Shown piece by piece: positions 1 to 25,941 of a stretch of 55,862 bases of DNA; within the stretch, counting starts at the first letter, position 1; each line of letters begins with the position of its first letter. Origin of the DNA: a virus. Under the pieces are notes generated by a model. The model was not told where the DNA came from, did no database searches, and was given only the letters and a program-made list of their open reading frames with translations. Made by a program: the position numbers and the translations under genes. The stretch is from IMG/VR virus record IMGVR_UViG_3300045988_121401; one strand, given 5' to 3'.

Positions 1-55
1 CACACCGCCCCGCTCGGGCACACCGCCCCGCTCGGGCACACCGCCCCGCTCGGGC
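1..55. repeat. Terminal repeat: 3 tandem 18-nt units CACACCGCCCCGCTCGGG plus C, identical to 55808-55862
   Basis: Direct reading: nt 1-55 equal nt 55808-55862 (55/55). Implies a circular or terminally redundant molecule, or an assembly overlap. Confidence 0.9.
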
Positions 56-91
56 TTGCACCCACACCGTATGTCGGCATACAGTAGAGGC
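56..91 (+). promoter_or_regulatory. Promoter-operator module P1 (leaderless): -35 TTGCAC 56-61, palindrome GTATGTCGGCATAC 69-82, -10 TACAGT 80-85
   Basis: 18-nt spacer. The -10 ends 6 nt before the A of ATG 92. Same architecture at 2305(+), 3576(-), 4084(-), 55146(+). Confidence 0.6.
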
Positions 92-886
92 ATGAGCAAT
101 GACATGAACCGCCCCGCCAACCAGCAGCCCGCCCCGCAGACCTCGACCGACCGCCCGACCGCCACCTACCCGACCGACCCCGCCGCCATCTGGGCCGACC
201 CCGCCGGCTACCCGACCGACTGGCTGGCCGACCGCACGCCGACGGCGACCTACCCGGCCGGTTACCCCCAGGCCGCCCAGGCCGCCCCCCATGTCACGAC
301 AAATGCCCCTCAGAACGAGGGGCCGATCCAGGACATGGGCCGCCCCGGCCCCCTGTCGCGCCCCTCCATGCGGTGGCACCCCTCCCTCATGCAGCTCGCC
401 ATCGGCGCGGCGGTGGCCCTCCTCGCCCTCACCAGCATGTGCCACCTCGCCACCGAGGGGATGGCCGACGCCGCCAGGCACTGCCACGAGCTGGCCGCGA
501 GCGACTGGGACCGCGCCGAGCGCGAGTGCCGTGGCGCCGGATCCGCCACCCCCGCCCCCGAGCAGATCCCCTCATCCCCACATACCCCCTCTCCCGCCCC
601 CTCTCAGGCCCCCTCGCCCTCCACCCCGCCAGCGTTCACGCGCGTTAACAACCCCTCCCCCTCCACTCAGCCCTCCTCATCCCCTCAGGACGCCCCCACC
701 TGGGTCACCCTCGACACCGGCGCTCCCTACGCGAAGGACGACCCCCACGCCTCGCCCCTGGCCCTGCCCCGCTGCACGACCTCCCCCTCCACCCCCCTGC
801 CCTGCCTGGCCTCCCTCAGCTCGGACGGATCCCGGGCCGTCGTCCTGGAGGAGGACGCCTCGCTGACCGGCCTGGTGCGCCGCTGA
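92..886 (+). CDS. Pro/Ser/Thr-rich membrane-anchored protein, function unknown
   Basis: ORF 56..886 trimmed to ATG 92 (MSNDMNRP...), 6 nt after the P1 -10. One hydrophobic helix LMQLAIGAAVALLALTSM. No domain recognised. Confidence 0.6.
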   Translation: MSNDMNRPANQQPAPQTSTDRPTATYPTDPAAIWADPAGYPTDWLADRTPTATYPAGYPQAAQAAPHVTTNAPQNEGPIQDMGRPGPLSRPSMRWHPSLMQLAIGAAVALLALTSMCHLATEGMADAARHCHELAASDWDRAERECRGAGSATPAPEQIPSSPHTPSPAPSQAPSPSTPPAFTRVNNPSPSTQPSSSPQDAPTWVTLDTGAPYAKDDPHASPLALPRCTTSPSTPLPCLASLSSDGSRAVVLEEDASLTGLVRR

Positions 887-943
887 CGACCGCCACCGCA
901 CAGCCGCTGACAGCCCCGCACAGCCTCTGGAAAGGATCCACCC

Positions 944-1090
944 ATGTCCCCCTACCGCCCCGCCCACCGTCGCCGCCCTACGCGCCTGCCAGACCCCTCA
1001 GACATCCTCCTCCTGGCCCTGACCGCCGCCACCCTCCTGGCGGCCGCCCTCGTCACAGGCGGCCTGGCGGCCCACCCGTTCGCCGGCTAG
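944..1090 (+). CDS. Small membrane protein (48 aa), hypothetical
   Basis: Below the ORF-track cutoff. ATG 944 is preceded by GGAAAGGA with a 7-nt spacer. Hydrophobic core ILLLALTAATLLAAALVTGGLAA. Stop TAG 1088-1090. Confidence 0.35.
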   Translation: MSPYRPAHRRRPTRLPDPSDILLLALTAATLLAAALVTGGLAAHPFAG

Positions 1091-1112
1091 CTCCCTGCCT
1101 GGCGGCTCACCC

Positions 1113-1147
1113 GCCCGGCCCCCGGCCTCCCCGGCCTCCCCGGCCTT
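1113..1147. repeat. Tandem 9-nt repeat CCGGCCTCC (about 3.8 copies)
   Basis: Read directly in non-coding DNA. Confidence 0.8.
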
Positions 1148-1648
1148 GCGCACACGTCGTCGCGCACCGAGGGCGTAGCGGGCACCCTGAGCCCGGGGCG
1201 GTTCGCGAGGGCGCAGCGCAGCAAGCCCGAGCGACACCCCGCCCCGTGGCGAACCGCCCCGCACAGCCCTCCCCTGCCAAGATGGCGTATGCCCGCCATG
1301 CTCCCGCCGGCCCCTCAGGGCCGGGCGGTAGGAGTATGGCGGCATGCGCTTTCCTTGGCAGGGCACTGAGCCTCATAGGGCGAGTGTTCGAGGGGCGTGT
1401 ATGCCATGGCTGCGCACCGGCTCGCCCAGGTGCTCGCGTCGCGGAGCGCAGCGACGCGCTGGCACCGTAGCGAGCGGGGTGCACCCTGGCATGCACGCAG
1501 CCGAGGGCGCTCGCGCGCAGCCGCGGCCGACCGGCAGGCCGCTAGGCCGGTCGGACGGGGGCAAGCAGGGGGCGGACCGCCTCAAGGACGGGACCGTCCG
1601 GCACCCCTGCCCCGCCATTTTGTGTGACCCGCGCCACGGCTAGCCTAT

Positions 1649-1704
1649 GGGACGGGTACGGGTGCGGCACCGGCGCACGGCTGGCCTAATCCCGTCCCGG
1701 TTTT
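1649..1704 (+). terminator. Hairpin GGGACGGG...CCCGTCCC followed by GGTTTTCTC
   Basis: 8-bp stem (1649-1656 / 1691-1698), 34-nt interior containing GGTGC-G-GCACC, T-run 1701-1704. No annotated gene lies immediately upstream. Confidence 0.35.
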
Positions 1705-1712
1705 CTCAGGCC

Positions 1713-1748
1713 GTTGCAATTGCAACGAAAAGTCCGTTATGTATACAT
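1713..1748. repeat. Palindromes GTTGCAATTGCAAC (1713-1726) and ATGTATACAT (1739-1748) flanking an AAAAGTCC motif (1728-1735)
   Basis: Perfect palindromes read directly. AAAAGTCC recurs at 3074 and 22194. Confidence 0.8.
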
Positions 1749-2057
1749 ACATCGCCCCACTTTTCCGCATCATCCCACCGCCGCCCCTCAGGCCCGCCTG
1801 CTCCGCCTCCCGGCTCGTCATCCTTCGCGGTTATCGGGGCGCGACGGGCTCCCCACGCCGCGGTACGTAGACGTCCTGGGGCGGTTCGGTACAGCTCGGC
1901 CGGCCCCTCGGCAGCCGGTCCGACAGCCCGGACCCCTCTCCCGGTCCGTAGTGGTTCCCAGGGATCTTTCAGGTTTCTCAGGGCTCTCCCAGGTTCGGCC
2001 CCCGCTGTACCTACAGGTATGTGAATGCAGTCACTCAAATTAATTTCTCAAAGTGAC

Positions 2058-2188
2058 GTATGCCTGGTTGCATGAGATCTGGGTCACATGTAACTTAGCA
2101 TACACTTGTCCGGTCAAGATGTATGCAGGGCATACGTACTTTCCGTTGGAATGGCGCGGTTGTATGCTAAGTTATAAGTTAACTTATA
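2058..2188. promoter_or_regulatory. AT-rich nested-palindrome region
   Basis: Elements: GTATGCCTGGTTGCATG (2058-2074); inverted repeat TAACTTAGCATAC (2091-2103) / GTATGCTAAGTTA (2162-2174); central GTATGCAGGGCATAC (2121-2135); 16-bp palindrome TATAAGTTAACTTATA (2173-2188). The local sequence is much more AT-rich than the rest of the genome. Confidence 0.6.
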
Positions 2189-2217
2189 GGCTTCCTCCCC
2201 CGTAGGGGGAGGAAGCC
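2189..2217. terminator. Hairpin GGCTTCCTCCCCC-GTA-GGGGGAGGAAGCC (13-bp stem)
   Basis: Perfect stem, no clear U-tract on either strand. Same CCTCCCC/GGGGAGG core as the hairpins at 2976 and 22691. Confidence 0.5.
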
Positions 2218-2255
2218 ATAACTATAGAAACTACCTGTGGCTGGCGCCACACTAC

Positions 2256-2275
2256 GTTCCCAGGATGTTCCCAGG
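2256..2275. repeat. Direct repeat GTTCCCAGG x2 (11-nt period); related TTCCCAGG / TCCCAGG at 1955 and 1987
   Basis: Read directly. Lies about 30 nt upstream of the P2 -35. Confidence 0.7.
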
Positions 2276-2304
2276 TTCCGTCCACGCCGCCGCCTCTGCC
2301 CGGC

Positions 2305-2340
2305 TTGCGCCCCGCCCGGTATGCCTGCATACTTCTCCCC
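2305..2340 (+). promoter_or_regulatory. Promoter-operator module P2 (leaderless): -35 TTGCGC 2305-2310, palindrome GTATGCCTGCATAC 2319-2332, -10 CATACT 2328-2333
   Basis: 17-nt spacer. The -10 ends 7 nt before ATG 2341. Confidence 0.55.
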
Positions 2341-2829
2341 ATGAGCAACCGCTACTCCCTCAGCCAGACCGACAGCCCTCGAACCACCTACCGCGTCATC
2401 GACCACTCCCGCGACGACGAGCCGGCCCTGCACCCGGCCACCCTGCCCAGCGGCGCCCCGCACCCGCTGGCCGGTCAGCCGGCCTCCGTCGTCACCTCCC
2501 CGTCCCGGGCCTACCGCGTGCAGGGGGAGGGGCGGGCCCGGACTTGGGCCGAACTGGGCGGCTACGCCGTCGCCGTCATCGAGCAGGTCCCCGCGTGGGC
2601 CTCGGCCCCGGCGAGCACGGTCCTGCGCGAGGACCCTCACGCCTTCGACGGGATCCCGGAGGAGCTGGTCCTCTCCGCCGCCGGCGGGCTGTCGGTCCGA
2701 ACCTGGTTCGCCGCCCTCACCTCCACGGGCGCCCACCGGCTGCCCCGCTGGCAGGACCGCTACGCGGCCGCCGCCGCCCACGCCCCGTCGGCCCGTCTCG
2801 CCCTGAGACGCCTCCTAACCGCCCTGTAA
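2341..2829 (+). CDS. Hypothetical protein (162 aa)
   Basis: ORF 2305..2829 trimmed to ATG 2341 (MSNRYSLSQ...) by module P2. No domain recognised. Confidence 0.6.
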   Translation: MSNRYSLSQTDSPRTTYRVIDHSRDDEPALHPATLPSGAPHPLAGQPASVVTSPSRAYRVQGEGRARTWAELGGYAVAVIEQVPAWASAPASTVLREDPHAFDGIPEELVLSAAGGLSVRTWFAALTSTGAHRLPRWQDRYAAAAAHAPSARLALRRLLTAL

Positions 2830-2848
2830 GCCTCTCTGACGGCCTAAC
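2825..2848 (+). repeat. 24-nt perfect direct repeat TGTAAGCCTCTCTGACGGCCTAAC, copy 1 (starts in the stop codon of 2341..2829)
   Basis: Identical to 3015-3038. Related inverted copy at 22205-22228. Confidence 0.9.
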
Positions 2849-2975
2849 ACCCTCGCCCCGGTACCTGCACCTAGGTCCCGGGGCGCTGTGCCGTCTACGG
2901 CGCTCTGATGAGCTGCGAGGGACGTGGCTGCTGCCGGCGGCTCTCCTCTACCTGCGCCGGCCCGGCCCGAGCCGC

Positions 2976-2996
2976 CCTCCCGCCTTCGGCGGGAGG
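2976..2996 (+). terminator. Hairpin CCTCCCGCC-TTC-GGCGGGAGG (9-bp stem)
   Basis: Read directly, downstream of plus-strand gene 2341..2829. No U-tract. Confidence 0.4.
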
Positions 2997-3014
2997 CACG
3001 CCCCCTTCAGGCCG

Positions 3015-3038
3015 TGTAAGCCTCTCTGACGGCCTAAC
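3015..3038 (+). repeat. 24-nt perfect direct repeat TGTAAGCCTCTCTGACGGCCTAAC, copy 2
   Basis: Identical to 2825-2848. Its CTCTGACGG (3024-3032) can pair with CCGTCAGAG (3080-3088). Confidence 0.9.
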
Positions 3039-3180
3039 GGCCCCGCACCCGTATGACGGCCCTGCCCGGCCCTAAAAGTCCGTCAGAGGGGCTCCTAGAC
3101 CCCTTCACGGGCATGAAAAGGCCCCGCCCACCTCTCCGGTGGACGGGGCTCTCCGTCAGGGTGCCTGCGAGGCGCTCCCG

Positions 3181-3540
3181 TCAGGCGGGCAGGGGGGCCT
3201 CGAAGTGCTGCACGAGGGCGTCCAGCACGTCGGCCATGCCGCCGGCGACCTCACGGCCACCGCGCTCGCGGCCGGTCATCCGGGCCACGATCCGGCCATC
3301 CTCGACCCGCATGCGGGCCTGGAGCGGGCTGTGCTCCTTGATGAGGCCGATCCGGCCGGTGCGCCACTCGTTGACCCGGGTCAGGTCGAGGGATGCGGAG
3401 GCGGTGGCGGCGATCACTTTCATCTGGTCGGTCAGCTGGTCGTCGGTCAGGGTGGGGGTGAGGTCAGTGGTCTGGGTCACAGTGGGCTCCTGGGGGGTGA
3501 GGTGGTCGGTGGGCTGCTGGGCGGTTCGTGAATCGATCAT
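3181..3540 (-). CDS. Hypothetical protein (119 aa)
   Basis: ORF 3181..3576 trimmed to ATG 3540 (MIDSRTAQQ...), 6 nt after the -10 of module P3. Confidence 0.6.
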   Translation of the reverse strand: MIDSRTAQQPTDHLTPQEPTVTQTTDLTPTLTDDQLTDQMKVIAATASASLDLTRVNEWRTGRIGLIKEHSPLQARMRVEDGRIVARMTGRERGGREVAGGMADVLDALVQHFEAPLPA

Positions 3541-17983: not shown

Positions 17984-18328
17984 TTAATCTCCGCTGTAAT
18001 AGGCTCGGATCGCCTGTACGATCCTCCGCTCCCCGTCGACGTAGACATTCGCCGACGTCTGCCAAAGATGCCAGCCGCGAGAGTGCAGCATGGCAATGGC
18101 GTCAAGGATCTCCTCGAATTTCTTCAGGCCGAATGACGCGACGGTGATGTCGGGGACGTCGTTCTGTCGTAGCAGGGTCTCGATCGCCTTCCAGTCATTC
18201 AGGCCCCGCACACGGTATCCGCGATCGAACACGGGGTGGGCCGAGCCGCCCTCCTCCCACGCCCTCTCGAACGCCTCTTCAGGCGTCAGCAGGGGAAGCT
18301 TGTCGAAGTCACGCACCGGCGTCCTCAC
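17984..18328 (-). CDS. Hypothetical protein (114 aa)
   Basis: ORF overlapping the primase-helicase stop by 20 nt. Confidence 0.55.
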   Translation of the reverse strand: MRTPVRDFDKLPLLTPEEAFERAWEEGGSAHPVFDRGYRVRGLNDWKAIETLLRQNDVPDITVASFGLKKFEEILDAIAMLHSRGWHLWQTSANVYVDGERRIVQAIRAYYSGD

Positions 18329-20708
18329 TCTCCTCGTCGTCCAGGTTCCGCTCCGCAGGGCCGTCCTCGCCGACGGCGATCAAGGTGTACCGGTGTCCGC
18401 CGCGATCCCCGGCGGACATGATCCATCCTCGAGAGATCAGCCGGCCCAGGGCGGCCTTGGTACGCGACCTAGGCAGGTCCGGATCGATGATGTCGTACAG
18501 CTCCCGAGAGTTCATCTGGGTGCCGATCTCGCCGCGGAACGCCCCGATCACCGTGTCCTCGTCGTCCTGGCGCTGGGCGATCTTCTCCATCATCTTGGAC
18601 ATGTCGGTGAAGTCCAGCTCCACGCGACGCTCAACGTCGTTCACGTCCCCGCCCTCGGCGTTCAGGACGCCGCCACCCCCTGAGGGAGTGCGCCGCGGGG
18701 GAGTGATGACGAGGGACGAACGCCCCTCGGTGCGGCTGTCGAGCGTGACCACGCCGGCCACCTGAGCCTTTCCGCGCCCGCCCGTCTTCTGGGAGTGGGC
18801 ACGGACCTGGCCGGGCCGGTCCTTCAGCACGACCAGCTCCATCTCACCGACGTCGCCGGGCATGGGCTGCTTGATCGGCCACACCTGGAGCAGGGTCCCC
18901 TGCACCATGGCGACCTTGTGCTGAGAGCCGATGGGCATGGAGCCCTTCTCGGCGCTCTTGGCCTGGTGGTCGATGATGATCACCGTCGAGCGACCGTTGC
19001 GGGTCAGCCGCTTCAGCCACGACGTGATGACGTCCGTCGAGACGGCGTCATTCGCGTCCAGTCCGTGCAGGCCGTAGAGCGCCGTCATACCGTCGGCCAC
19101 GATGATGTCCGGGTCGAGCGAGGTCAGGGCCATGTCGAACTGATCCTGGGCGAACTCGCCGGACTTGGTCGGCTGGTCCTTGCCCCACTTGTTGCGCTGC
19201 ATGTCGGCCAGGGGGCCCTCGGGGCGAATGTAGGAGAACTGGGCCCGAAGGTCGTCGTCCACGGCGCCCAGCAGGCGCAGGCGGTTGAGCGTCTGGACAG
19301 GCTCATCCTCGAAGTCGAGGTACAGGGCGCGGCCGCCGGCCTCGATCTCCTGGAGGCAGATCGCCATGGCGATCCACGACTTCGCCGACTCCGAGGAGCC
19401 GAAGAGCATGTTCACGCGGCCCCGGTACATGAGACAGGCGCCGTCGTTGCGGCGGCAGACCTCCGGGTCCGGGACGGTGAGCTTCCCCGTCAGGTACGGC
19501 TCCAGGTCGACGGGGCTCCAGGACGACGGGCGCGCGTCCAGGGGGTCCAAGTCCTCGCAGGGGCCCTCATCGGGACCTTCCTCCTTGACTCCGTCCCCCC
19601 CAACGCCGTGCTCCGGGAGGAGAGCCCCGAGCGAACGGGGCCCTTCAGCGTCACCGGCCTCGACGAACTCGGGCCCCGGAGCCGAGTCGTCGAGCTCGAT
19701 CGTCAGGCCGTCCCACTGCCGTGCCCATGGCGGCTGCCATCCCGGCACGTCGCCGGCCACGTCCGGCACGAAGCCGGCCACGGCCTCAGCGTCGCGCACG
19801 AGGCGCTCTACGAGCTGCACGCTCTCCTCCCCGATGTACTCGGCCAGGCGGGTGAAGCCGGTGGCCTCCCCGCCCTCCCGAAGGCGGCGCTTCGTAGTGT
19901 AGATCGCCTCACGCTCGCGCTGCTCGGCCCCGTCCTCGTCGTGGGTGGCCAGGGCGAGGGTGCGGATGACGAGGCCCGCGTTGCGCTCCCAGAACGGGTG
20001 CACGGTCTGCGAGTCGCCGTAGCGAAGGAGGCCTCCGGCGAGGGCGACGTAGGCGTCGTGGCGCTGGCCCGGGCCCGGCCACGAGTCCAGCAGGACGGAG
20101 CACAGCCCGAGGAGGACGACCTGGGCCAGGAGCTCGGTGCCGTCCACGACGGCGGGGCCCTCGGCGCCGCCCCAAGGCTCACCCTCCCACTCGTAGGTCT
20201 CGGCCGTGGTGGGGTGGATCGAGGGCGGCACGAGGGTCTGGGCCCCGTTACCACGGATCTCGACTGACACGCCGGAGCCTCGGCCCGACTTGTCGGGCAT
20301 GCGCAGGCGCCGGGTCGCCGGCAGGGTGCCAGGCTTGGCGCGGTACCAGTAGTGCGACTTGCGGGACGTCTCGCGGCCGTGGACCGCTGCCGTGTAGGGC
20401 AGCAGGTACGACTTCAGCCGCGCCGCGGCGGGGTGGTCGAGGTCGACGTCGATCAGGTCGCCTGAGGCCTCGCCGAGGAGGATGCCGAGGTTGGTCGATC
20501 CGCCCGCCGTGTACTCCTCGAAGGCGGCGCGGACGGCGTCCTCGCCCTCGCCGGTGTCGATCGCGGGGTCCGGCCAGCGGAGCTTCGTCCAGCCGGCCAT
20601 CGTGGGGCTCTTGGAGTGACGAGTAATGGGCAGAGGCGTTAGTCCCCTACGGTACGCGTCAAGGGCCGCCTCGACGACGGCCGCGTTATGCTGCTCAGTT
20701 GTGCTCAT
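18309..20708 (-). CDS. Bifunctional primase-polymerase (prim-pol) / RecA-fold replicative helicase
   Basis: N-terminal LTPLPITRHSKSPTMAGWTKLRW and LIDVDLDHP (prim-pol). Central MLFGSSESAKSWIAMA...LYLDFED (AAA_25/DnaB-like). C-terminal winged-helix-like tail. Confidence 0.8.
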   Translation of the reverse strand: MSTTEQHNAAVVEAALDAYRRGLTPLPITRHSKSPTMAGWTKLRWPDPAIDTGEGEDAVRAAFEEYTAGGSTNLGILLGEASGDLIDVDLDHPAAARLKSYLLPYTAAVHGRETSRKSHYWYRAKPGTLPATRRLRMPDKSGRGSGVSVEIRGNGAQTLVPPSIHPTTAETYEWEGEPWGGAEGPAVVDGTELLAQVVLLGLCSVLLDSWPGPGQRHDAYVALAGGLLRYGDSQTVHPFWERNAGLVIRTLALATHDEDGAEQREREAIYTTKRRLREGGEATGFTRLAEYIGEESVQLVERLVRDAEAVAGFVPDVAGDVPGWQPPWARQWDGLTIELDDSAPGPEFVEAGDAEGPRSLGALLPEHGVGGDGVKEEGPDEGPCEDLDPLDARPSSWSPVDLEPYLTGKLTVPDPEVCRRNDGACLMYRGRVNMLFGSSESAKSWIAMAICLQEIEAGGRALYLDFEDEPVQTLNRLRLLGAVDDDLRAQFSYIRPEGPLADMQRNKWGKDQPTKSGEFAQDQFDMALTSLDPDIIVADGMTALYGLHGLDANDAVSTDVITSWLKRLTRNGRSTVIIIDHQAKSAEKGSMPIGSQHKVAMVQGTLLQVWPIKQPMPGDVGEMELVVLKDRPGQVRAHSQKTGGRGKAQVAGVVTLDSRTEGRSSLVITPPRRTPSGGGGVLNAEGGDVNDVERRVELDFTDMSKMMEKIAQRQDDEDTVIGAFRGEIGTQMNSRELYDIIDPDLPRSRTKAALGRLISRGWIMSAGDRGGHRYTLIAVGEDGPAERNLDDEESEDAGA

Positions 20709-21159: not shown

Positions 21160-22071
21160 ACTACCCGAAGGGTATTGGAACCTCAAGGCTCCGAGGGCCT
21201 AGGTGGCCGGGCGGTTGCCGCGTCCCGCGGCTGGTAAGTCCATTCTTTACGAAGGCTCATGGGACGTTGACTAGACGTCCGGGCGAATCTTGTGTCTCAG
21301 GTCCTGCATACGCGGCCGATTGATCCATCACGCATTCGCACGGTCCCGCAGAGGCAGTTCCCCTCGCTCGATGTTCTCAAGTCCCGTACCCCGCCCGAGC
21401 TCGACAGTGATGATGAAGCGCTCGTAAGGGGCCGTTTTACATGGGAATACCGAGGAAGCGTTTCAGCGGGGAACCCTTGCGAGCAGCTTCCCCCCACGTC
21501 TCGGGACCTGTCGATGACGCCGTGAGCACGCTTCGAGCTGGTCGTCCGGCTCGTCACCTCGTCGCTCGGCAGCGCGAGTTTACCGATACCGGACGGGCTC
21601 TCAACCCGTGCTCCCCCTCCGCCCACTTTGGAGACTCCAACCGCGGTGTCCTCCCCGACTACGAGCCAGGTTTGGTGTGAGGGCCTACGAGGTCCATTCC
21701 TCCGCTGCGTAAAGATGGTTAGCGGAATCCAGTTGTCCGAGCCCTGCGAGCCTTCTAGCGGTGGTCGACTTGGCTTAGGGCCCTCGGCTGATCCTCCGAG
21801 GCTGCCCCGTCCGTCCAGGCCATCGCGTACTCGCAAAGCCTCCCGGCTTACCGGGTATCGCCCCGCCTCGGGTTAGTTCCTCACTCAGTTAGAACCGGGC
21901 CGTTTCCACCGCTGAATCGCGGTGGCCGGTCCTAGGAGTTTCGCTCCCTCGGCGGCGCTGGAACTATTAAACCACATCCCCGGGGGGCGGGCGCAAGTCG
22001 AAATGAGATTTCCTGCCGTGAGTGTCGTCACATTTGCGCGGGGCGGGTGGCGCGGCCCTCCCGGAACGAAG

Positions 22072-22086
22072 GTGTGTGTGTGTGTG
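22072..22086. repeat. (GT)7 alternating purine-pyrimidine tract
   Basis: Read directly. Confidence 0.9.
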
Positions 22087-22199
22087 GGCCGGCACTGCCC
22101 GCCGCGGGCCGGCGCCGGAGTTCCTCTGAGGCGTTCTAAGCCATTCTGAGCGCCTTTCAGGGCCGTACCCCTCCGGGAGTGCGGGGACGGGGTAAAAGT

Positions 22200-22230
22200 C
22201 CCTCAGAAGGGCTTACACGGCCTCTGAGGG
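22200..22230. repeat. Hairpin CCCTCAGA-N15-TCTGAGGG; its minus strand carries GCCGTGTAAGCCCTTCTGAGGG, an inverted copy of the 2825/3015 repeat
   Basis: Compared by eye with 3011-3032 (GCCGTGTAAGCCTCTCTGACGG). Confidence 0.7.
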
Positions 22231-22353
22231 GCATGTACGGGCCTCTCCCCGGCACGAAGGTGCGGTGGCGGGTACGTCCAAGCCTTGGATCGAAGGCTGT
22301 TCGGGACTGACCGCCGTCGGAGTCCGAGGTCGCTGAGAGGCCCGAGGGGCGGG

Positions 22354-22395
22354 CGTGTTGACCGAGCGCAGCGCAGCGGAGCGAGCCTCAACACG
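22354..22395. repeat. Twin hairpin A: stem CGTGTTGA/TCAACACG, loop contains AGCGCAGCGCAGCGGAGCGAG (22365-22385)
   Basis: Read directly. Confidence 0.85.
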
Positions 22396-22549
22396 GCGAC
22401 CCGAGGAAAGCCTCTCCGCCGGGGAGCCGAGAACCTGCGAGGACCCGCGGGCGACCGGCGCCCCAGCGCCGCAGCGCCTTTCGCGGGGACACCGCAGGGG
22501 CGAGCCTCCCAGGCGCTTGCGACGGCCGCGGTTCGAACCGGGGTTCAAA

Positions 22550-22593
22550 GACCCGACCCCGAAGCGCAGCGCAGCGGAGCGAGGGGTCGGGTC
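22550..22593. repeat. Twin hairpin B: stem GACCCGACCCC/GGGGTCGGGTC, loop contains the same 21-mer (22563-22583)
   Basis: Read directly. The stem is unrelated to hairpin A and the loop 21-mer is identical. Confidence 0.85.
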
Positions 22594-22644
22594 GGAACCG
22601 GCAACGGGTGCGGAACCGGCACCGGCAACGGAGTGGCCCAGGTC

Positions 22645-22661
22645 ACATATATACATATATT
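22645..22661. other. AT island ACATATATACATATATT in GC-rich context
   Basis: Read directly. Confidence 0.8.
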
Positions 22662-22690
22662 CCACTACCCACACAACACGAGCGCCCCTC

Positions 22691-22729
22691 GGGTCTCCTC
22701 CCCCCCTGACTTCGTCAGGGGGAGGAGAC
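22691..22729. terminator. Long hairpin GGGTCTCCT-C7-TGAC-TTC-GTCA-G5-AGGAGACCC
   Basis: About 18 bp with a 2-nt bulge. No U-tract. Confidence 0.5.
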
Positions 22730-22932
22730 CCGGGGGCGCGAGTGTGTGTGGGCGCGCGCGGGCGCGCATGATGGCAAATTCCGGGGCGGAATTCAAGCGC
22801 AAAACGATGATGTTGTTCACGGAATAGGCCCGTAAAAGTGGGATATTCATCACAGGCCGATTTGGGAATACGGTCCGACACGCCGATGAACCCCAGCAAT
22901 AGCGCAAAAGTGCAAACTTTGCGGGGCAAACC

Positions 22933-22957
22933 GTATGACTCCATACAACCAGCATAC
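22933..22957 (-). promoter_or_regulatory. GTATGACTCCATAC (22933-22946) overlapping a copy of GTATGC(C)TGGTTGyATG (22941-22957, minus); -10-like TACGGT on the minus strand
   Basis: Similar to 2058-2074. No good -35. Confidence 0.35.
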
Positions 22958-23004
22958 ATGTGTCCAGAATGTGAGACGGGAGGCTGCGGAAGGGCTGAAA
23001 GGGC

Positions 23005-23057
23005 GTGACCGGCGTCACTTGTCTCACTATGCGGACACCTGTCTCAGCATGCGGACA
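23005..23057. promoter_or_regulatory. GTGAC-CGGC-GTCAC (23005-23018) plus direct repeat TGTCTCANNATGCGGACA x2 (23020-23037, 23040-23057)
   Basis: Read directly. TGTCTCA is the half-site of the palindromes at 23720 and 23831. Confidence 0.6.
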
Positions 23058-23090
23058 GGCGGCCTGGGGAGTGATTCAGGGCACACAAAA

Positions 23091-23117
23091 GGGCCCCAGC
23101 CGCGATGGCTGGGGCCC
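23091..23117 (-). terminator. Intrinsic terminator GGGCCCCAGCC-GCGAT-GGCTGGGGCCC followed by TTTTGTGTG
   Basis: 11-bp GC stem plus U-tract on the minus strand, 14 nt after the stop of 23131..23622. Confidence 0.8.
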
Positions 23118-23130
23118 TCCGATCCGGGGC

Positions 23131-23622
23131 TCAGGCGTCCCTCGGAGCCCGTCGGTAGGGGGTCTTGTTGCGGGCCGGGCGGCGTGTCCCGCCCCTCGTC
23201 ATCGTGCCTGGGAAGGTCGGGTCGATACGGCGAGCCCTGCGTAGCCAGGAGTCCACGGTATAGATGCTGCGGCCCAGCTCCTTGGCGATGTCGGTGCGGG
23301 TCTTGCCCTCCTCGATCATGGTCCGCAGCGTCTCGACGGGCGCCCCTCGGTACTGGTTGCCCCCTCGTGCAGGCTTCTCGGCCCTCTCAAGCACGTTTGC
23401 GGCGATTTCACAGAGGGTCCTGTGGGGGACACTGTCGGGGAAGCGAACGCCCTCGTCTGGGCGGCACAGGAGGTTCACGACGTGGTAGCGGCCGCCGGCG
23501 TCCGGCTCCTCGGTGATCTCGACCCAGTACTCGATCTCGTTCTTCGTGTCCCTGACCTGGACGGCTGGGCGGCCCTGGATAGTGGCCTTGCGGGCGGGGT
23601 AGGTACGAAGCGCGTTGCGCAT
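23131..23622 (-). CDS. DNA-binding protein with C-terminal helix-turn-helix
   Basis: Trimmed to ATG 23622 (TAGGAGACACC before the ATG). TRTDIAKELGRSIYTVDSWLRRAR reads as an HTH. Confidence 0.65.
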   Translation of the reverse strand: MRNALRTYPARKATIQGRPAVQVRDTKNEIEYWVEITEEPDAGGRYHVVNLLCRPDEGVRFPDSVPHRTLCEIAANVLERAEKPARGGNQYRGAPVETLRTMIEEGKTRTDIAKELGRSIYTVDSWLRRARRIDPTFPGTMTRGGTRRPARNKTPYRRAPRDA

Positions 23623-23678
23623 GGTGTCTCCTAAAGTGTGGTGTGATGCAGGTCTCTTGGCTAGTTGGGAATAGGCTA

Positions 23679-23846
23679 GAATACGTTGCAATCACTGCGT
23701 ATTCCCGATTTCTGAGTTTTGAGACGTATGTCTCAGGAGATGTGGGGTGAAAGTGTGATGCATGTCTCCGAGAATGCGGGAATACAGGACTTTCCCCAGC
23801 GTTTCCAACGTATTCCCGGTTTTGAGGTTTTGAGACGTAAGTCTCA
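23679..23846. promoter_or_regulatory. Operator array: two 38-nt direct repeats (23698-23735, 23809-23846; 34/38 identical), each ending in TGAGAC-N4-GTCTCA and each paired with an upstream inverted GGGAATAC(G) arm
   Basis: Palindromes at 23720-23735 and 23831-23846. Inverted arms at 23679-23685/23698-23704 and 23777-23785/23810-23818. Confidence 0.7.
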
Positions 23847-23847
23847 A

Positions 23848-25941
23848 TCAGACGGCTGGGAGCGGGTCGTCCTCATCGTGCAGGTCGTGCACGCCCCACC
23901 GGGTGCCGGCCGAGGGACCTGCCACTACGGGCACGTCCATCTGGCAGTCGAGCGGGCGCAGGAACGTGTTGACGTCCTCCATCCGGCGCTTGCACTCGAT
24001 AAGGATCTCCTGCCAGCGGTCCTCGGGGACCTCGATGCAGATCTCGTCATGCACGGTGGCCACGACATGCGCCCCTTCGACGCGGGGGAGCGGGTAGCCG
24101 GGCAGCGTGCCCATGATCGACGCAGCGGCCATCTGCATGAGGTCCGAGCCGAAGCCCTGCACGGGACTGTTCAGGGCGTTGCGCTCAGCGTGGGAGGACT
24201 TAAACGAGCTCTTCGAGTACAGGTCGCTGAGCCACTGAGTGCGGCCTATGGGGGACGTCACATAGCCACGCTCGTAGGCCCGGCGCTTGGCTCGCTCGTG
24301 CCACTGGCGCATGCCATCCCACATCTCGAAGAATGCGCTGTGGACGGCCTGAGCCTCGGCCAAAGTGAGAGAAACGTCATAGGCAGTGGCGGCGTAGGAC
24401 TGGAATCCGCCAGGGCTCATGCCGTAGAGGAGGCCGAAGTTGCCGGCCTTCGCCCGCTTGCGCTCCATCGAGGTCACGTCCTCGGGCGCCTTGCCGGCGA
24501 TCCTCGCGGCGAGGAGCCTGTGAAGATCATCACCCCGCTGGAACGCCTCGATCATAGGCCCCGATCGCGAGATGAAAGCCGCCACCCGTAGCTCGACCTG
24601 GCTGTAGTCGAGGTCGAGCAGAACGTGACCGGGTCGGGGGATGAAGGCCGGTTTTAGTGAGCTTGCACACTGCTGGAGGTTCGGGGAGGCACAACTTAAT
24701 CTTCCCGTGCGGACAAATCCCACGTTGTAGGTGGCGTGGATCACGTTGTTGGGGTCCTTGAGCTTCAGCCAGGAGCGCAGGAACTCCAGCGTCTTCGTCG
24801 CGTCACGGTGGCGCAGCAGCGCGTCGGCGGCCGGGCTGCCCTGCCGCTGCTGGGCGATGAGGACCGCCTTGTTCCACTGAGCGTTTCCGGAGTCCGTGCG
24901 CGCCGTCACACGCAGGTCGCCCGCCTCGATGGCTTGAGCCACGAAGCCCTGGAACCACTTCGACGTGGCCGCCGTGGTCACGCCGTCCTTCGCCGGAGCC
25001 GGCGCCGGGGCGGTCCCGTACAGGCCGAGGATGTCCTCGCAGGCCTTCAGGCGCAGGGAGTCCATCTCCTCGATCTTGGCATGGACCCAGTCGACGTCGA
25101 GGAGGAAGCCCCTCTGCTCCACCTTTGTGAGGGTCTTCACAGTAGGCATGGAGACGCAGGTGGCGACCTTGCCCAGGCGGGCCATCTGGATGTCGTCGGA
25201 GTCGAAGGGCTCCTCGTCACCGGTGAGGAACATCTGGTCGCGGTGCTCCTCCTCGATCTTCCAGGTGTAGTAGGTGTCACGCGCCGCGTACTCGCCGAGC
25301 TGGATCAGGTCCACCTGCTCGGCGGCGCCGGGAGTGCTGAGGTCGAAGTCGTCCCACTCTTCGATCCCGAAGTCGCGCGCGGCGCGAATCTTCAGACGGG
25401 TGCGGGCCTCGGTGTCCACCAGCTGGGACGATACGGTCGTATCCCACTCGATACGGTCGGACAGGTCCACGCCGGCCTGGGCGAAAACCCAGCGGGCGTC
25501 GAACTTGATGTTCGCGTTGACGAAGGGCTTCCCGCTGCGGTTGATCTCACGGCCGATGATCGCCATGACCTTTCTCCACGCGCCGAGCAGCGGCGAGGCC
25601 GGGTGTGAGAGGGGTACGAGGTAGGTCATCGGCTGCTCGCCGTCGAAGGTGCGCCAGTTGTAGGCGCCGGCCGCGGCGCGCTCAGCGCTCGGGAGGGTAA
25701 GGGAGGCCAGGACGATCCGGGCGGGGTAGCCGCCGTTGGTGTCTCCGCCGGCCTCCGCGTACTCGTCCAGGCCGGTGGTCTCGAGGTCCATGACGACCCT
25801 CTGCGAGGCGCGGATGGCCTTGAGGAGGACCTTAAGGTCCTCCTTACCCCAGACCCACGTGATCGGGCCGCAGGGCGTGTGCGAGCCCTGGGCGGCCTTC
25901 CTGGCCCGGCCCACAATCTTCTCCAGGTCCATGATGCTCAT
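23848..25941 (-). CDS. Family A DNA polymerase (Pol I-like) with 3'-5' exonuclease domain
   Basis: VMDLETTGLD (Exo I), RKRAKAGNFGLLYGMS (motif B), ATVHDEICIEV (motif C). Confidence 0.9.
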   Translation of the reverse strand: MSIMDLEKIVGRARKAAQGSHTPCGPITWVWGKEDLKVLLKAIRASQRVVMDLETTGLDEYAEAGGDTNGGYPARIVLASLTLPSAERAAAGAYNWRTFDGEQPMTYLVPLSHPASPLLGAWRKVMAIIGREINRSGKPFVNANIKFDARWVFAQAGVDLSDRIEWDTTVSSQLVDTEARTRLKIRAARDFGIEEWDDFDLSTPGAAEQVDLIQLGEYAARDTYYTWKIEEEHRDQMFLTGDEEPFDSDDIQMARLGKVATCVSMPTVKTLTKVEQRGFLLDVDWVHAKIEEMDSLRLKACEDILGLYGTAPAPAPAKDGVTTAATSKWFQGFVAQAIEAGDLRVTARTDSGNAQWNKAVLIAQQRQGSPAADALLRHRDATKTLEFLRSWLKLKDPNNVIHATYNVGFVRTGRLSCASPNLQQCASSLKPAFIPRPGHVLLDLDYSQVELRVAAFISRSGPMIEAFQRGDDLHRLLAARIAGKAPEDVTSMERKRAKAGNFGLLYGMSPGGFQSYAATAYDVSLTLAEAQAVHSAFFEMWDGMRQWHERAKRRAYERGYVTSPIGRTQWLSDLYSKSSFKSSHAERNALNSPVQGFGSDLMQMAAASIMGTLPGYPLPRVEGAHVVATVHDEICIEVPEDRWQEILIECKRRMEDVNTFLRPLDCQMDVPVVAGPSAGTRWGVHDLHDEDDPLPAV

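What the first reader, a model, noticed from the sequence alone, without database searches (positions are those of the whole stretch)
22354..22593. Twin hairpins with unrelated stems but an identical 21-nt loop
Hairpin A has stem CGTGTTGA/TCAACACG (22354-22361 / 22388-22395). Hairpin B has stem GACCCGACCCC/GGGGTCGGGTC (22550-22560 / 22583-22593). Both present the same 21-mer AGCGCAGCGCAGCGGAGCGAG in the loop (22365-22385 and 22563-22583), 198 nt apart. Different stems with a conserved displayed loop suggest selection for structure plus a loop recognised by a protein or a partner nucleic acid. GCGCAGCGCAGC also occurs at 1211-1222 in the other desert. Between the twins lies a nested helix (CCCGCG 22444-22449 / CGCGGG 22482-22487, enclosing GGCGC...GCGCC). 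After hairpin B come direct repeats CGGAACCGGCA and CCGGCAACGG. Possible roles are single-strand initiation signals for the adjacent prim-pol, RNA kissing loops or protein landing pads.
Basis: seen in the sequence. Interest (0 to 1): 0.7.

Follow-up and report, generated by a model that had tools for sequence, protein, structure and literature searches.

The report
Purine-capped twin DNA hairpins, phage origin region
The two hairpins are real and evolutionarily conserved, and their shared "loop" is a self-folding (AGCGN)n purine cap that also sits on the packaged strand of unrelated single-stranded DNA viruses, so they are most likely fold-back signals used in DNA replication.

Summary
Confirmed. 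The 21-mer occurs twice, on the + strand only, capping an 8-bp and an 11-bp stem; 0 matches are expected by chance.

The window is a ~56-kb oral actinobacterial siphophage. The hairpins lie in a 1.9-kb non-coding stretch between the PolA/HTH genes and the prim-pol/helicase gene.

In 24 distinct relatives a three-hairpin fold (A, middle, B) is 99.5% paired. Sixteen pairs show compensatory changes. Dulem virus 38 and a 74%-identity clade keep the cap on entirely different stems.

The "loop" is overlapping GCGNAGC mini-hairpin units with G·A mismatches. One pair inside it covaries. Every one-sided stem change gives G·T on the + strand (9 sites against 0), so the + strand folds.

Directly after hairpin B come a unique (CGGNNN)7 array, a conserved AT-rich box and a GC-rich palindrome. 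A second, collinear module lies at 1100–2300.

The cap recurs in at least 119 IMG/VR loci. In 5 of 5 CRESS viruses and 3 of 3 Microviridae it is on the packaged strand.

- **Best reading (about 0.42):** single-stranded-DNA hairpins near an origin that mark priming or replisome entry.
- **Main rival (about 0.30):** a new + strand structured RNA.
- **Known families:** no Rfam family matches.

The parts
22116..22265 (+). Conserved block 1 upstream of the hairpins. It holds inverted TCTGAG/CTCAGA repeats around CCTCCGGGAGTG.
   Evidence: Column conservation is 0.83-0.92, flanked by hypervariable linkers. It is the part most similar to Dulem virus 38. The 12-mer CCTCCGGGAGTG, followed by an AAAG-TCCC ... 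CTCAGA stretch, recurs next to the prim-pol gene of Microbacterium phage Leaf.
22330..22334 (+). 5' half of closing stem P1, which pairs with 22518-22522.
   Evidence: RNAalifold consensus on alignment A2, columns 1-5 with 191-195. Four pairs are invariant and one covaries CG/AU.
22335..22416 (+). Extended hairpin A. Core stem 22354-61/22388-95; outer stem GAGAGGC 22335-41 / GCCTCTC 22410-16; two CGAG/CGAG internal loops.
   Evidence: Helices 2-4 are 99.7-100% paired. Compensatory changes occur at 22356/22393 and 22359/22390. Dulem virus 38 has an unrelated 18-bp stem with the same type of cap.
22364..22385 (+). Cap A, GAGCGCAGCGCAGCGGAGCGAG. Three overlapping GCGNAGC units start at 22366, 22371 and 22376.
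   Evidence: The N positions vary among C, A, G and T in relatives while AGCG stays fixed.
22417..22515 (+).
   Evidence: Helices 5-8. Eight pairs show compensatory changes, for example CTGCG/CGCAG to GCCCG/CGGGC and CCCGCG/CGCGGG to CGCGTG/CACGCG.
22518..22522 (+). 3' half of closing stem P1.
22542..22599 (+). Extended hairpin B. Core stem 22550-60/22583-93; outer GGTTC 22542-46 / GAACC 22595-99.
   Evidence: Helices 10-13. Four compensatory stem pairs occur at 22554-57/22586-89. The whole hairpin folds with z -4.3 to -5.2.
22561..22582 (+). Cap B, GAAGCGCAGCGCAGCGGAGCGA. GCGNAGC units start at 22564, 22569 and 22574.
   Evidence: The inner pair 22565/22579 covaries CG/GC/UA. Two pentamer units are deleted in L009 and L055.
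22593..22634 (+). (CGGNNN)7: seven CGG triplets at a strict 6-nt period, starting at the last base of hairpin B.
   Evidence: It is the only trinucleotide array with 6 or more copies at period 6 in the 55.9-kb window, on either strand. In relatives CGG is fixed while NNN drifts. Arrays of 3-7 copies adjoin the AT-rich box in the other clades that were checked; none of 3 or more was found in L040.
22645..22661 (.). Conserved AT-rich box ACATATATACATATATT in a 66% GC genome. It includes TATATT at 22656-61.
   Evidence: Conservation is about 0.90. TATATT is one of only two -10-like TANNNT hexamers conserved across 21200-23140. Comparable AT-rich boxes occur in the divergent clades.
22676..22745 (.). 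Long GC-rich palindrome. Outer arms (ACACGAGCGCCCC / GGGGCGCGAGTGT) are conserved; the inner part varies in length but stays palindromic.
   Evidence: Inverted repeats I3 and I19. Length variation is seen in relatives, and the same outer arms appear in the divergent clades.
1150..1700 (+). Second, collinear structured module ('desert 1'). It contains GCGTAGC at 1173, the hairpin 1194-1261 capped by GCGCAGCGCAGC, a GCGGAGC/GCGCAGC-containing hairpin near 1436-1462, and (CGGNNN)4 at 1653.
   Evidence: (DNA fold z -5.5). In 12-13 relatives, 32 pairs show compensatory changes, with G·T cells far outnumbering A·C cells on the + strand.

Best explanation
The twin hairpins belong to a strand-specific fold-back element on the + strand. 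The element is a closing stem around hairpin A and a middle hairpin, followed by hairpin B.

Each of the two hairpins is capped by a self-folding purine motif, (AGCGN)4. This motif consists of GC-GNA-GC mini-hairpin units joined by G·A mismatches.

The proposed mechanism has four steps.
1. The DNA opens at the adjacent AT-rich box, or the + strand is displaced as lagging-strand template.
2. The + strand snaps into these very stable hairpins.
3. Their caps resist melting by single-strand binding protein.
4. They therefore mark fixed places where a primase (the phage prim-pol/helicase or the host enzyme) and the replisome start complementary-strand synthesis.

The (CGGNNN)7 array between hairpin B and the AT-rich box would be the single-strand or initiator binding track.

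**Shown here:** the structure, its conservation, the folded strand, the motif content, the neighbourhood, and the strand bias in ssDNA viruses.

**Inferred:** that the folded molecule is DNA rather than RNA, that the region is an origin, and that priming starts here.
For: 1. **Structure under selection.** 89 pairs are 99.5% paired. Sixteen pairs have compensatory changes. 0 of 500 shuffles reach the observed values, and slid controls are only 36-44% paired. Dulem virus 38 and the 74%-identity clade carry entirely different stems under the same cap.
2. **The + strand folds.** One-sided changes give G·T at 9 pair sites and A·C at none. All cap mismatches are G·A on the + strand and would be C·T on the other. 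The consensus fold is -163 against -145 kcal/mol.
3. **The cap matches motifs characterised in DNA.** GCGNAGC mini-hairpins are much more stable as DNA than as RNA. They are reported at the G4/St-1/alpha3 priming origins, in the RepB' ssiA hairpin and in the N4 hairpin promoter (PMC13037366). CGAG blocks with sheared G:A pairs form stable DNA hairpins (PMC10085684).
4. **Replication neighbourhood.** The element lies between PolA and the prim-pol + AAA_25 helicase gene. It directly adjoins a unique (CGGNNN)7 array, a conserved AT-rich box and a palindrome.
5. **A second module on the same absolute strand.** It sits at 1100-2300 although its flanking genes face the other way.
6. **Packaged strand of ssDNA viruses.** The same cap lies on the nonanucleotide strand in 5 of 5 CRESS viruses. 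In L193 that strand is opposite to both genes. In 3 of 3 Microviridae it is intergenic on the virion strand.
7. **No promoter for a + strand RNA.** No conserved -10-like hexamer lies upstream of the hairpins on the + strand, and no Rfam family matches.
8. **GC skew.** The + strand skew turns persistently positive from about 20-22 kb.
Against: - Nothing here shows that the folded molecule is DNA. G·T tolerance and a multi-helix fold with a 190-nt closing stem are equally typical of RNA.
- No origin has been mapped, and the GC-skew change is shallow.
- Microbacterium phages with a related prim-pol lack these hairpins. The cap also occurs in viruses without any primase, so recognition by this prim-pol in particular is unsupported.
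- In RSF1010 the two ssi hairpins lie on opposite strands; here both are on one strand.
- In several low-GC phages the cap lies next to terminase genes rather than replication genes.
- Many of the cross-family hits have no clear flanking stem.
- The strand bias in ssDNA viruses rests on 8 genomes.
- No cluster of DnaA boxes is present.
Confidence: 0.42

Rival explanations
1. A new structured non-coding RNA is transcribed from the + strand, about 22100-22740. A paralogue would lie at 1100-1700. The hairpins would be RNA arms whose G·A-rich caps bind a protein or build a tertiary structure.
For: Compensatory covariation, with G·U as the only tolerated one-sided change, is the classic RNA signature. 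The multi-helix architecture has a closing stem. The GC-rich palindrome at 22676-22745 could be a factor-independent terminator. In the second module the flanking genes are on the + strand, so that copy could be co-transcribed. Across one-sided viral contigs the cap is on the coding strand in 16 cases against 4 (tallied by hand from the table).
Against: No conserved TANNNT hexamer lies upstream on the + strand between 21200 and 22330. At 22330-22600 the RNA would be antisense to every neighbouring gene. GNA triloops are weak in RNA and strong in DNA (PMC13037366). No Rfam family matches, even at E-values up to 5. In CRESS contig L193 the cap lies on the virion strand, opposite to both genes.
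Confidence: 0.3
2. A double-stranded regulatory or architectural region. The inverted repeats would extrude as cruciforms or serve as binding sites for the neighbouring helix-turn-helix protein or another phage factor, controlling early or middle transcription.
For: An HTH / sigma-region-4-like protein is encoded next door at 23131-23691. Direct repeats and GCATAC-type motifs lie at 22940-23060. A -10-like TATATT sits in the AT-rich box. Alternating purine-pyrimidine tracts flank the region.
Against: Binding sites on duplex DNA do not need compensatory stem changes or wholesale stem replacement. A cruciform needs both strands to fold, yet the mismatches are G·A on one strand and C·T on the other, and one-sided changes are all G·T on the + strand. 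The cap lies on the packaged strand of ssDNA viruses.
Confidence: 0.12
3. A long 5' leader of the prim-pol operon on the minus strand. The hairpins would display open pyrimidine loops (CUCGCUCCGCUGCGCUGCGCU) to an antiterminator or other RNA-binding factor, in the manner of nut or put sites.
For: All neighbouring genes are on the minus strand. A hairpin followed by a T-run (23090-23118) ends the upstream operon, so a promoter and leader must lie in this region. On this strand the 21 nt would be truly unpaired.
Against: The nine one-sided changes would all be A·C mismatches on this strand. The pair that covaries inside the cap makes little sense between pyrimidine mismatches. The consensus fold is less stable. 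No conserved -10-like hexamer was found on the minus strand.
Confidence: 0.06
4. Nothing functional: either a low-complexity GC-rich repeat with chance complementarity, or part of the 248-aa ORF 22213-22959 (annotated as a hypothetical protein in Dulem virus 38).
For: (AGCGN)n is a simple pentamer repeat whose copy number varies. Related repeats are common in viral contigs, and some lie inside ORFs of GC-rich contigs. An ORF does span the site.
Against: Chance expectation is 0. Covariation is strong. There is no third-position GC periodicity across 21200-23130. No conserved reading frame exists across clades, and indels are not multiples of three. The two ORF translations do not resemble each other.
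Confidence: 0.02

Closest known systems
Single-strand initiation signals ssiA/ssiB in oriV of plasmid RSF1010 (RepB' primase, RepA helicase, RepC initiator)
   Same: Both have two stable hairpins next to an AT-rich stretch and repeats, beside genes for a primase with an archaeo-eukaryotic-type fold and a helicase. ssiA carries a GNA-type mini-hairpin cap, CCGAAGG (PMC13037366; PMC8567376).
   Different: ssiA and ssiB are 40-nt inverted copies on opposite strands; here the hairpins are direct and on one strand. Here they are longer, are joined to a third hairpin by a closing stem, and carry a four-unit cap. No RepC-like initiator or 20-bp iterons were found. Priming was not tested.
Complementary-strand origins of Microviridae G4, St-1 and alpha3 (primase-dependent hairpins)
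   Same: Both are hairpins on single-stranded phage DNA that contain GCGNNAGC-type mini-hairpins, bind SSB poorly and mark the primer start (PMC13037366). Three metagenomic Microviridae carry the (AGCGN)4 cap in an intergenic region of the virion strand.
   Different: Those phages have ssDNA genomes and use host DnaG. The window is a 56-kb dsDNA phage with its own prim-pol.
Hairpin promoters of phage N4 virion RNA polymerase
   Same: Both have a small DNA hairpin with a GGA or GAA triloop.
   Different: No N4-like or T7-like RNA polymerase was found in the ORFs searched (about 40; not the whole window). N4 hairpins have 5-7 bp stems and a single triloop.
CGAG-block and mini-hairpin DNA structures (AUTS2 promoter oligonucleotides; d(GCGAAGC))
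   Same: The building blocks are the same: G:C pairs alternating with G:A pairs in 5'-CGAG contexts, plus GNA triloops (PMC10085684; PMC13037366).
   Different: Those are biophysical motifs without an assigned replication role. Here they cap long Watson-Crick stems that are conserved in evolution.
Two-site phage origins (P4 ori/crr; SPP1 oriL/oriR), single-strand origins of rolling-circle plasmids and Streptomyces telomere palindromes (recalled from memory, not checked here)
   Same: Like P4 and SPP1, there are two related non-coding modules in one genome. Like the plasmid single-strand origins and the telomere palindromes, the fold-backs are strand-specific, with an AGCG-containing loop or GNA loops closed by sheared G:A pairs.
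   Different: No sequence similarity was found to plasmids. A literature search for the TAGCGT loop motif gave nothing usable. There is no rolling-circle Rep or terminal protein here.

Membership tests
Single-strand initiation (ssi) signals / primase-dependent complementary-strand origins | A stable, strand-specific hairpin that forms in single-stranded DNA | tested here: inconclusive
   The strand-specific conserved fold is shown. Whether it forms in DNA rather than RNA is not.
Single-strand initiation (ssi) signals / primase-dependent complementary-strand origins | Primer synthesis starts at a defined nucleotide next to the hairpin, made by a cognate or host primase | not testable with these tools
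   This needs priming assays on cloned + strand ssDNA.
Single-strand initiation (ssi) signals / primase-dependent complementary-strand origins | Location in or beside a replication origin (repeats plus an AT-rich unwinding stretch) | tested here: inconclusive
   A (CGGNNN)7 array, an AT-rich box and a palindrome directly follow hairpin B, between the PolA and prim-pol genes. No origin has been mapped. There is no DnaA-box cluster.
RSF1010-type oriV (ssiA/ssiB) | Two ssi hairpins on opposite strands, priming both leading strands | tested here: not met
   Both caps and both hairpins are on the + strand.
Mini-hairpin DNA (GCGNAGC) and CGAG-block motifs | The sequence GCGNAGC (two G-C pairs closing a GNA loop), and 5'-CGAG facing 5'-CGAG | tested here: met
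   Each cap has three overlapping GCGNAGC units. CGAG counts are 9 on the + strand against 0 on the minus strand in 22201-22600. N is the position that varies. The sheared geometry and thermal stability are not testable here.
Any described RNA family (Rfam 15) | A covariance-model match at or near the gathering score | tested here: not met
   There are 0 matches at gathering score in the whole window. At E up to 5 only palindrome-driven miRNA-like noise appears. Nothing overlaps the cap in 15 unrelated loci. No tRNA was found.
Protein-coding gene (ORF 22213-22959; Dulem virus 38 XCD05743.1) | Codon-position composition and a reading frame conserved across relatives | tested here: not met
   No GC3 periodicity. 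No cross-clade tblastn hit stands out above multi-frame noise. Indels shift the frame.
CRISPR repeats or phage solitary repeat units | The repeat (stem) sequence is conserved while the sequence between repeats varies | tested here: not met
   The pattern here is the opposite. Stems differ and turn over, the cap is conserved, and the 100-nt segment between the hairpins is highly conserved.

The most novel reading that the evidence does not exclude
The (AGCGN)4 purine cap is a portable, self-folding single-stranded-DNA signal used across very different viruses: oral actinophages, low-GC tailed phages, Microviridae and CRESS-DNA viruses. It would sit on the strand that becomes or is packaged as single-stranded, and mark where complementary-strand synthesis or replisome entry begins. 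It would be a previously unrecognised general class of viral replication signal, recognised through its shape by a conserved host factor (primase, SSB or polymerase).
Probability: 0.3. Interest if true: 0.85.

Novelty: new variant of a known kind. Interest (0 to 1): 0.7.

Why it matters
How tailed phages that carry prim-pol/helicase fusions choose where to start DNA synthesis is largely unknown. So is the complementary-strand origin of most CRESS viruses and metagenomic Microviridae.

This work gives a concrete, short and easily synthesised candidate signal. It comes with clear predictions for strand, structure and position, which makes these questions directly testable in vitro.

It also has three practical consequences.
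- It flags a recurrent annotation error, in which a spurious "hypothetical protein" is called over the element.
- It identifies a structure likely to stall polymerases and break assemblies.
- It offers a strand marker for ssDNA viruses.

Tried and rejected
- **Rfam and tRNA:** Rfam at gathering score and at E up to 5, and a tRNA scan, gave nothing relevant.
- **Coding potential:** rejected.
- **Kissing loops:** rejected, because the only self-complementary piece is not conserved.
- **Minus-strand RNA:** disfavoured by 9 G·T sites against 0 A·C sites.
- **Promoter and terminator scan:** it found one weak minus-strand site at 21604-21577 and no terminator. It did not flag the hairpin plus T-run at 23090-23118 that is visible in the sequence.
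- **Conserved -10 search:** only two sites were found, both on the + strand at 22656 and 22869, downstream of the hairpins.
- **DnaA boxes:** no cluster.
- **Similarity searches:** the plasmid collection gave no match. The phage collection gave only Dulem virus 38.
- **Prim-pol against solved structures and NCBIfam:** no hit.
- **Phage RNA polymerase, HUH Rep or reverse transcriptase:** none was found in the ORFs that were searched.
- **Three-unit cap with CC..GG closing, in viral contigs:** 0 hits.
- **Literature:** the search for ssoA/TAGCGT gave nothing usable. No paper mentions the pentamer repeat in a viral context.
- **A -35-like TTGAC in stem A (a Frpo/M13-type ssDNA promoter idea):** dropped, because 7 of 24 relatives have TCGAC.
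- **IS200/IS605-type ends or a miniature mobile element:** dropped, because the element is fixed at the same locus with a highly conserved interior in all relatives.
Full report
**1.

- With up to three mismatches the 21-mer occurs only at 22365-22385 and 22563-22583, both on the + strand. Shuffles give none.
- Hairpin B folds much better than shuffled sequence (z -5.2 as RNA, -4.3 as DNA). Hairpin A alone is marginal.

**2. Context.**

The window is a roughly 56-kb, 66% GC tailed-phage genome.
- **Gene content.** It encodes a tape-measure protein, portal, large terminase and endolysin.
- **Relatives.** They are Dulem virus 38 from lemur saliva and 57 IMG/VR loci. Some of their sample ids look like human-microbiome project samples; that reading rests on my memory of the id format, not on a tool result.
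- **Neighbours.** The hairpins lie between a prim-pol + AAA_25 helicase gene (18309-20708, minus strand) and an HTH protein gene plus PolA (23131-25941, minus strand).
- **Non-coding.** The stretch 21200-23130 has no third-position GC periodicity. It has no reading frame conserved across clades. Its alignment to Dulem virus 38 has frame-breaking indels. The 248-aa ORF here and the "hypothetical protein" annotated in Dulem virus 38 are therefore spurious.
- **Conservation pattern.** Blocks as conserved as the flanking genes (0.9-0.97) alternate with hypervariable linkers.

**3. The stems are under selection.**

- **Close relatives.** Stem A occurs as CGTGTTGA, CGCGTTGA, CGTGTCGA and CGTGTTGG. 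Stem B occurs as GACCCGACCCC, GACCCGAGCCC and GACCGACCCCC. Each variant has the matching partner arm.
- **Distant relatives.** Dulem virus 38 and the clade with 74% prim-pol identity carry completely different, longer stems under the same kind of cap.
- **Consensus fold.** On 24 distinct sequences (alignment A2) the fold is a 5-bp closing stem (22330-34/22518-22), an extended hairpin A (22335-22416), a 100-nt middle hairpin (22417-22515) and an extended hairpin B (22542-22599).
- **Statistics.** Of 89 pairs, 99.5% of cells are paired and 16 pairs show changes on both sides. No shuffle out of 500 reaches the observed pairing or covariation. Sliding the partners by 1-3 columns drops pairing to 36-44%.
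- **Caveat.** The sequences fall into a few haplotype groups, so independent events are fewer than cells. Even so, several different sets of sequences carry the changes.

**4. The "loop" is a folded cap.**

- **Composition.** It is a pentamer repeat (AGCGN)n, that is, overlapping GCGNAGC units.
- **What varies.** The varying position is N, which takes C, A, G or T. The number of units also varies: two are missing from hairpin B in L009 and L055, and units are lost in the other module too.
- **Predicted fold.** Folding gives short GC helices separated by G/A mismatches around a GNA triloop.
- **Internal covariation.** The pair 22565/22579 inside cap B changes from C-G to G-C in four relatives and to T-A in one.
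- **Flanks.** They supply 5'-CGAG facing 5'-CGAG.
- **Literature.** GCGNAGC is the "mini-hairpin DNA" motif. It has two G-C pairs and a sheared G-A pair and is far more stable as DNA than as RNA. It has been noted at the G4, St-1 and alpha3 priming origins, in ssiA bound by RepB', and as GCGGAGC in the N4 hairpin promoter (PMC13037366). CGAG repeats form stable DNA hairpins of G:C and sheared G:A pairs (PMC10085684).

**5. Which strand folds.**

- In hairpins A, M and B every one-sided substitution gives G·T on the + strand. That is 9 pair sites; none gives A·C.
- All cap mismatches are purine-purine on the + strand and would be pyrimidine-pyrimidine on the other.
- The + strand consensus fold is more stable: -163 against -145 kcal/mol with RNA parameters. 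For the single sequence with DNA parameters it is -86 against -80.
- The + strand is antisense to all neighbouring genes.

**6. The hairpins are part of a larger conserved module.**

- **Hexamer array.** Starting at the last base of hairpin B there are seven CGG triplets at a strict 6-nt period (22593-22634). It is the only such array of six or more copies in the window. In relatives CGG is fixed while the other three bases drift. Arrays of three to seven copies sit at the same place in the other clades checked; none of 3 or more was found in L040.
- **AT-rich box.** Next comes a conserved AT-rich box (22645-22661).
- **Palindrome.** A GC-rich palindrome follows. Its outer arms are conserved in all clades and its centre varies while staying palindromic.
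- **Block 1.** Upstream lies conserved block 1 (22116-22265).
- **Second module.** A second non-coding region (1100-2300) repeats the same order on the same strand: GCGNAGC-capped hairpins, a CCGCGGNCGACCGGC helix, ACGGGTGCGGNACCGGC with (CGGNNN)4, an AT-rich stretch and a palindrome. It is conserved in relatives, with 32 compensatory pairs. Its flanking genes are on the + strand.

**7. The cap is not confined to this phage family.**

- **Spread.** GAGCGNAGCGNAGCGNAGCGAG matches 49 IMG/VR loci. They include contigs of 28-71% GC.
- **Setting.** In low-GC contigs the cap is mostly intergenic. It often caps unrelated stems, for example GGGCTCGGGG/CCCCGAGCCC in L155, and CCC...GGG in L078, L105, L110 and L115.
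- **CRESS viruses.** Five small circular contigs have a genuine CRESS-virus origin stem-loop (TAGTATTAC). All five carry the purine-rich cap on the nonanucleotide strand. Rep was confirmed for L088 and L193. In L193 both genes are on the other strand.
- **Microviridae.** Three contigs with an F capsid protein carry the cap in an intergenic region of the virion strand. Together with the CRESS contigs that makes 8 of 8 on the packaged strand.
- **Known descriptions.** No Rfam family covers it. No paper in the library mentions the repeat in a viral context.

**8. DNA or RNA.**

For DNA:
- the motif chemistry;
- the replication-gene neighbourhood and the AT-rich box;
- the same absolute strand at two loci with oppositely oriented neighbours;
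- the packaged-strand rule in ssDNA viruses;
- no conserved TANNNT upstream on the + strand;
- a + strand GC skew that turns persistently positive near 20-22 kb.

For RNA:
- the G·U-tolerant covariation;
- a long-range closing stem;
- a palindrome that could terminate transcription;
- a general bias of the cap towards the coding strand, 16 against 4 by my hand tally.

The evidence leans to DNA but does not settle the question.

**9. Proposed mechanism (about 0.42).**

When the + strand becomes single-stranded, it folds into the A-M-B hairpins. This could follow opening at the AT-rich box or displacement as lagging-strand template. The purine caps keep the hairpins closed against SSB. A primase and helicase (the phage prim-pol/AAA_25 protein or host enzymes) use them, together with the adjoining CGG track, as a fixed entry and priming site. 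The second module would act like a second origin or a cis-acting replication site.

The structure, strand, motifs and neighbourhood are shown. The rest is inference.

**10. Comparison with known systems.**

- **Closest.** The nearest are the RSF1010 oriV ssiA/ssiB signals and the primase-dependent origins of G4-type Microviridae.
- **Membership.** Membership in the RSF1010 type fails on strand arrangement, since both hairpins are on one strand. Priming itself could not be tested.
- **Prim-pol link.** Microbacterium phages with a 44-46% identical prim-pol lack the hairpins. Next to their prim-pol gene they do share block-1-like repeats and a palindrome with GTGTG/CACAC arms. The hairpin module is therefore an addition, not an obligatory partner of this enzyme.

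**11. Verdict.**

This is a real, conserved, strand-specific structured element, undescribed in Rfam 15 or the searched literature. Its cap turns out to be a widespread viral motif. I rate it a new variant of a known kind (single-strand initiation-type hairpins). There is a substantial chance that it is instead a new RNA family, and a fair chance that the cap defines a general class of ssDNA signal.

Noticed in passing
window 1100-2300: A second non-coding, strongly structured module is collinear with the one studied and lies on the same strand. It has GCGNAGC-capped hairpins, a shared 17-mer ACGGGTGCGGNACCGGC, (CGGNNN)4, an AT-rich stretch and the palindrome 2189-2217. It is conserved in relatives, with compensatory changes.
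   Followed up: partly
window 22593-22634: Seven CGG triplets at an exact 6-nt period, unique in the genome. In relatives CGG is fixed while the three bases in between drift. No known counterpart was identified. The hexamer Rep sites of circoviruses and DnaA-trios came to mind, from memory only.
   Followed up: partly
IMG/VR loci L078-L203: The (AGCGN)4 cap occurs in at least 119 viral contigs of all GC contents. They include 5 CRESS viruses and 3 Microviridae, always on the packaged strand. In low-GC tailed phages L080, L105 and L110 it lies just upstream of terminase genes, and in L105 and L110 also near contig ends.
   Followed up: partly
window 22160-22210 and L063:8320-8620 (Microbacterium phage Leaf): The 12-mer CCTCCGGGAGTG, followed by an AAAG-TCCC ... 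CTCAGA stretch inside CTGAG/CTCAG inverted repeats, is shared between block 1 and the intergenic region just after the Leaf prim-pol gene. That region also has an AT-rich stretch and a GTGTG/CACAC palindrome.
   Followed up: no
L052 (IMGVR_UViG_3300045988_143493), equivalent to window 22386-22583: This contig joins the 5' arm of hairpin A to the 3' arm of hairpin B through a single cap. That is a 198-nt deletion between the two repeats. It is either a natural recombinant or an assembly collapse of the 20-nt repeat.
   Followed up: partly
L001:4082-4801 (Dulem virus 38, XCD05743.1): The annotated 239-aa hypothetical protein lies over the non-coding structured region. Its sequence bears no resemblance to the equivalent ORF in the window, so it is probably not a gene.
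   Followed up: yes
window 22940-23120: Two 20-nt direct repeats (23016-23035 and 23036-23055; CACYTGTCTCA..ATGCGGA) and GCATAC/GTATGC-type motifs lie beside the HTH gene. Similar GCATAC motifs occur at 2020-2180. A perfect 12-bp hairpin at 23090-23118, followed on the minus strand by TTTTGTGTG, looks like the terminator of the PolA-HTH operon, yet the scan tool did not list it.
   Followed up: no
window 22072-22086 and 22040-22116: A (GT)7 tract lies in a linker that is hypervariable in length among relatives. The 15-mer CCCGGMACGAAGGTG occurs just before this linker (22060) and just before the next variable linker (22248).
   Followed up: no
window 2265-3029: By third-position GC the real gene here is 2305-2829 on the + strand, not the longer ORF 2265-3029. 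Genes 56-886, 944-1090 and 2305-2829 form a small + strand island in an otherwise minus-strand genome.
   Followed up: partly
window 1-3500 and loci L065-L074: Several independent roughly 56-kb contigs of this phage family start or end within a few kilobases of the second module (at window equivalents of about -300, 1, 595, 1127 and 3442). This hints at genome ends, or at assembly breaks, in this very GC-rich, hairpin-rich region.
   Followed up: no
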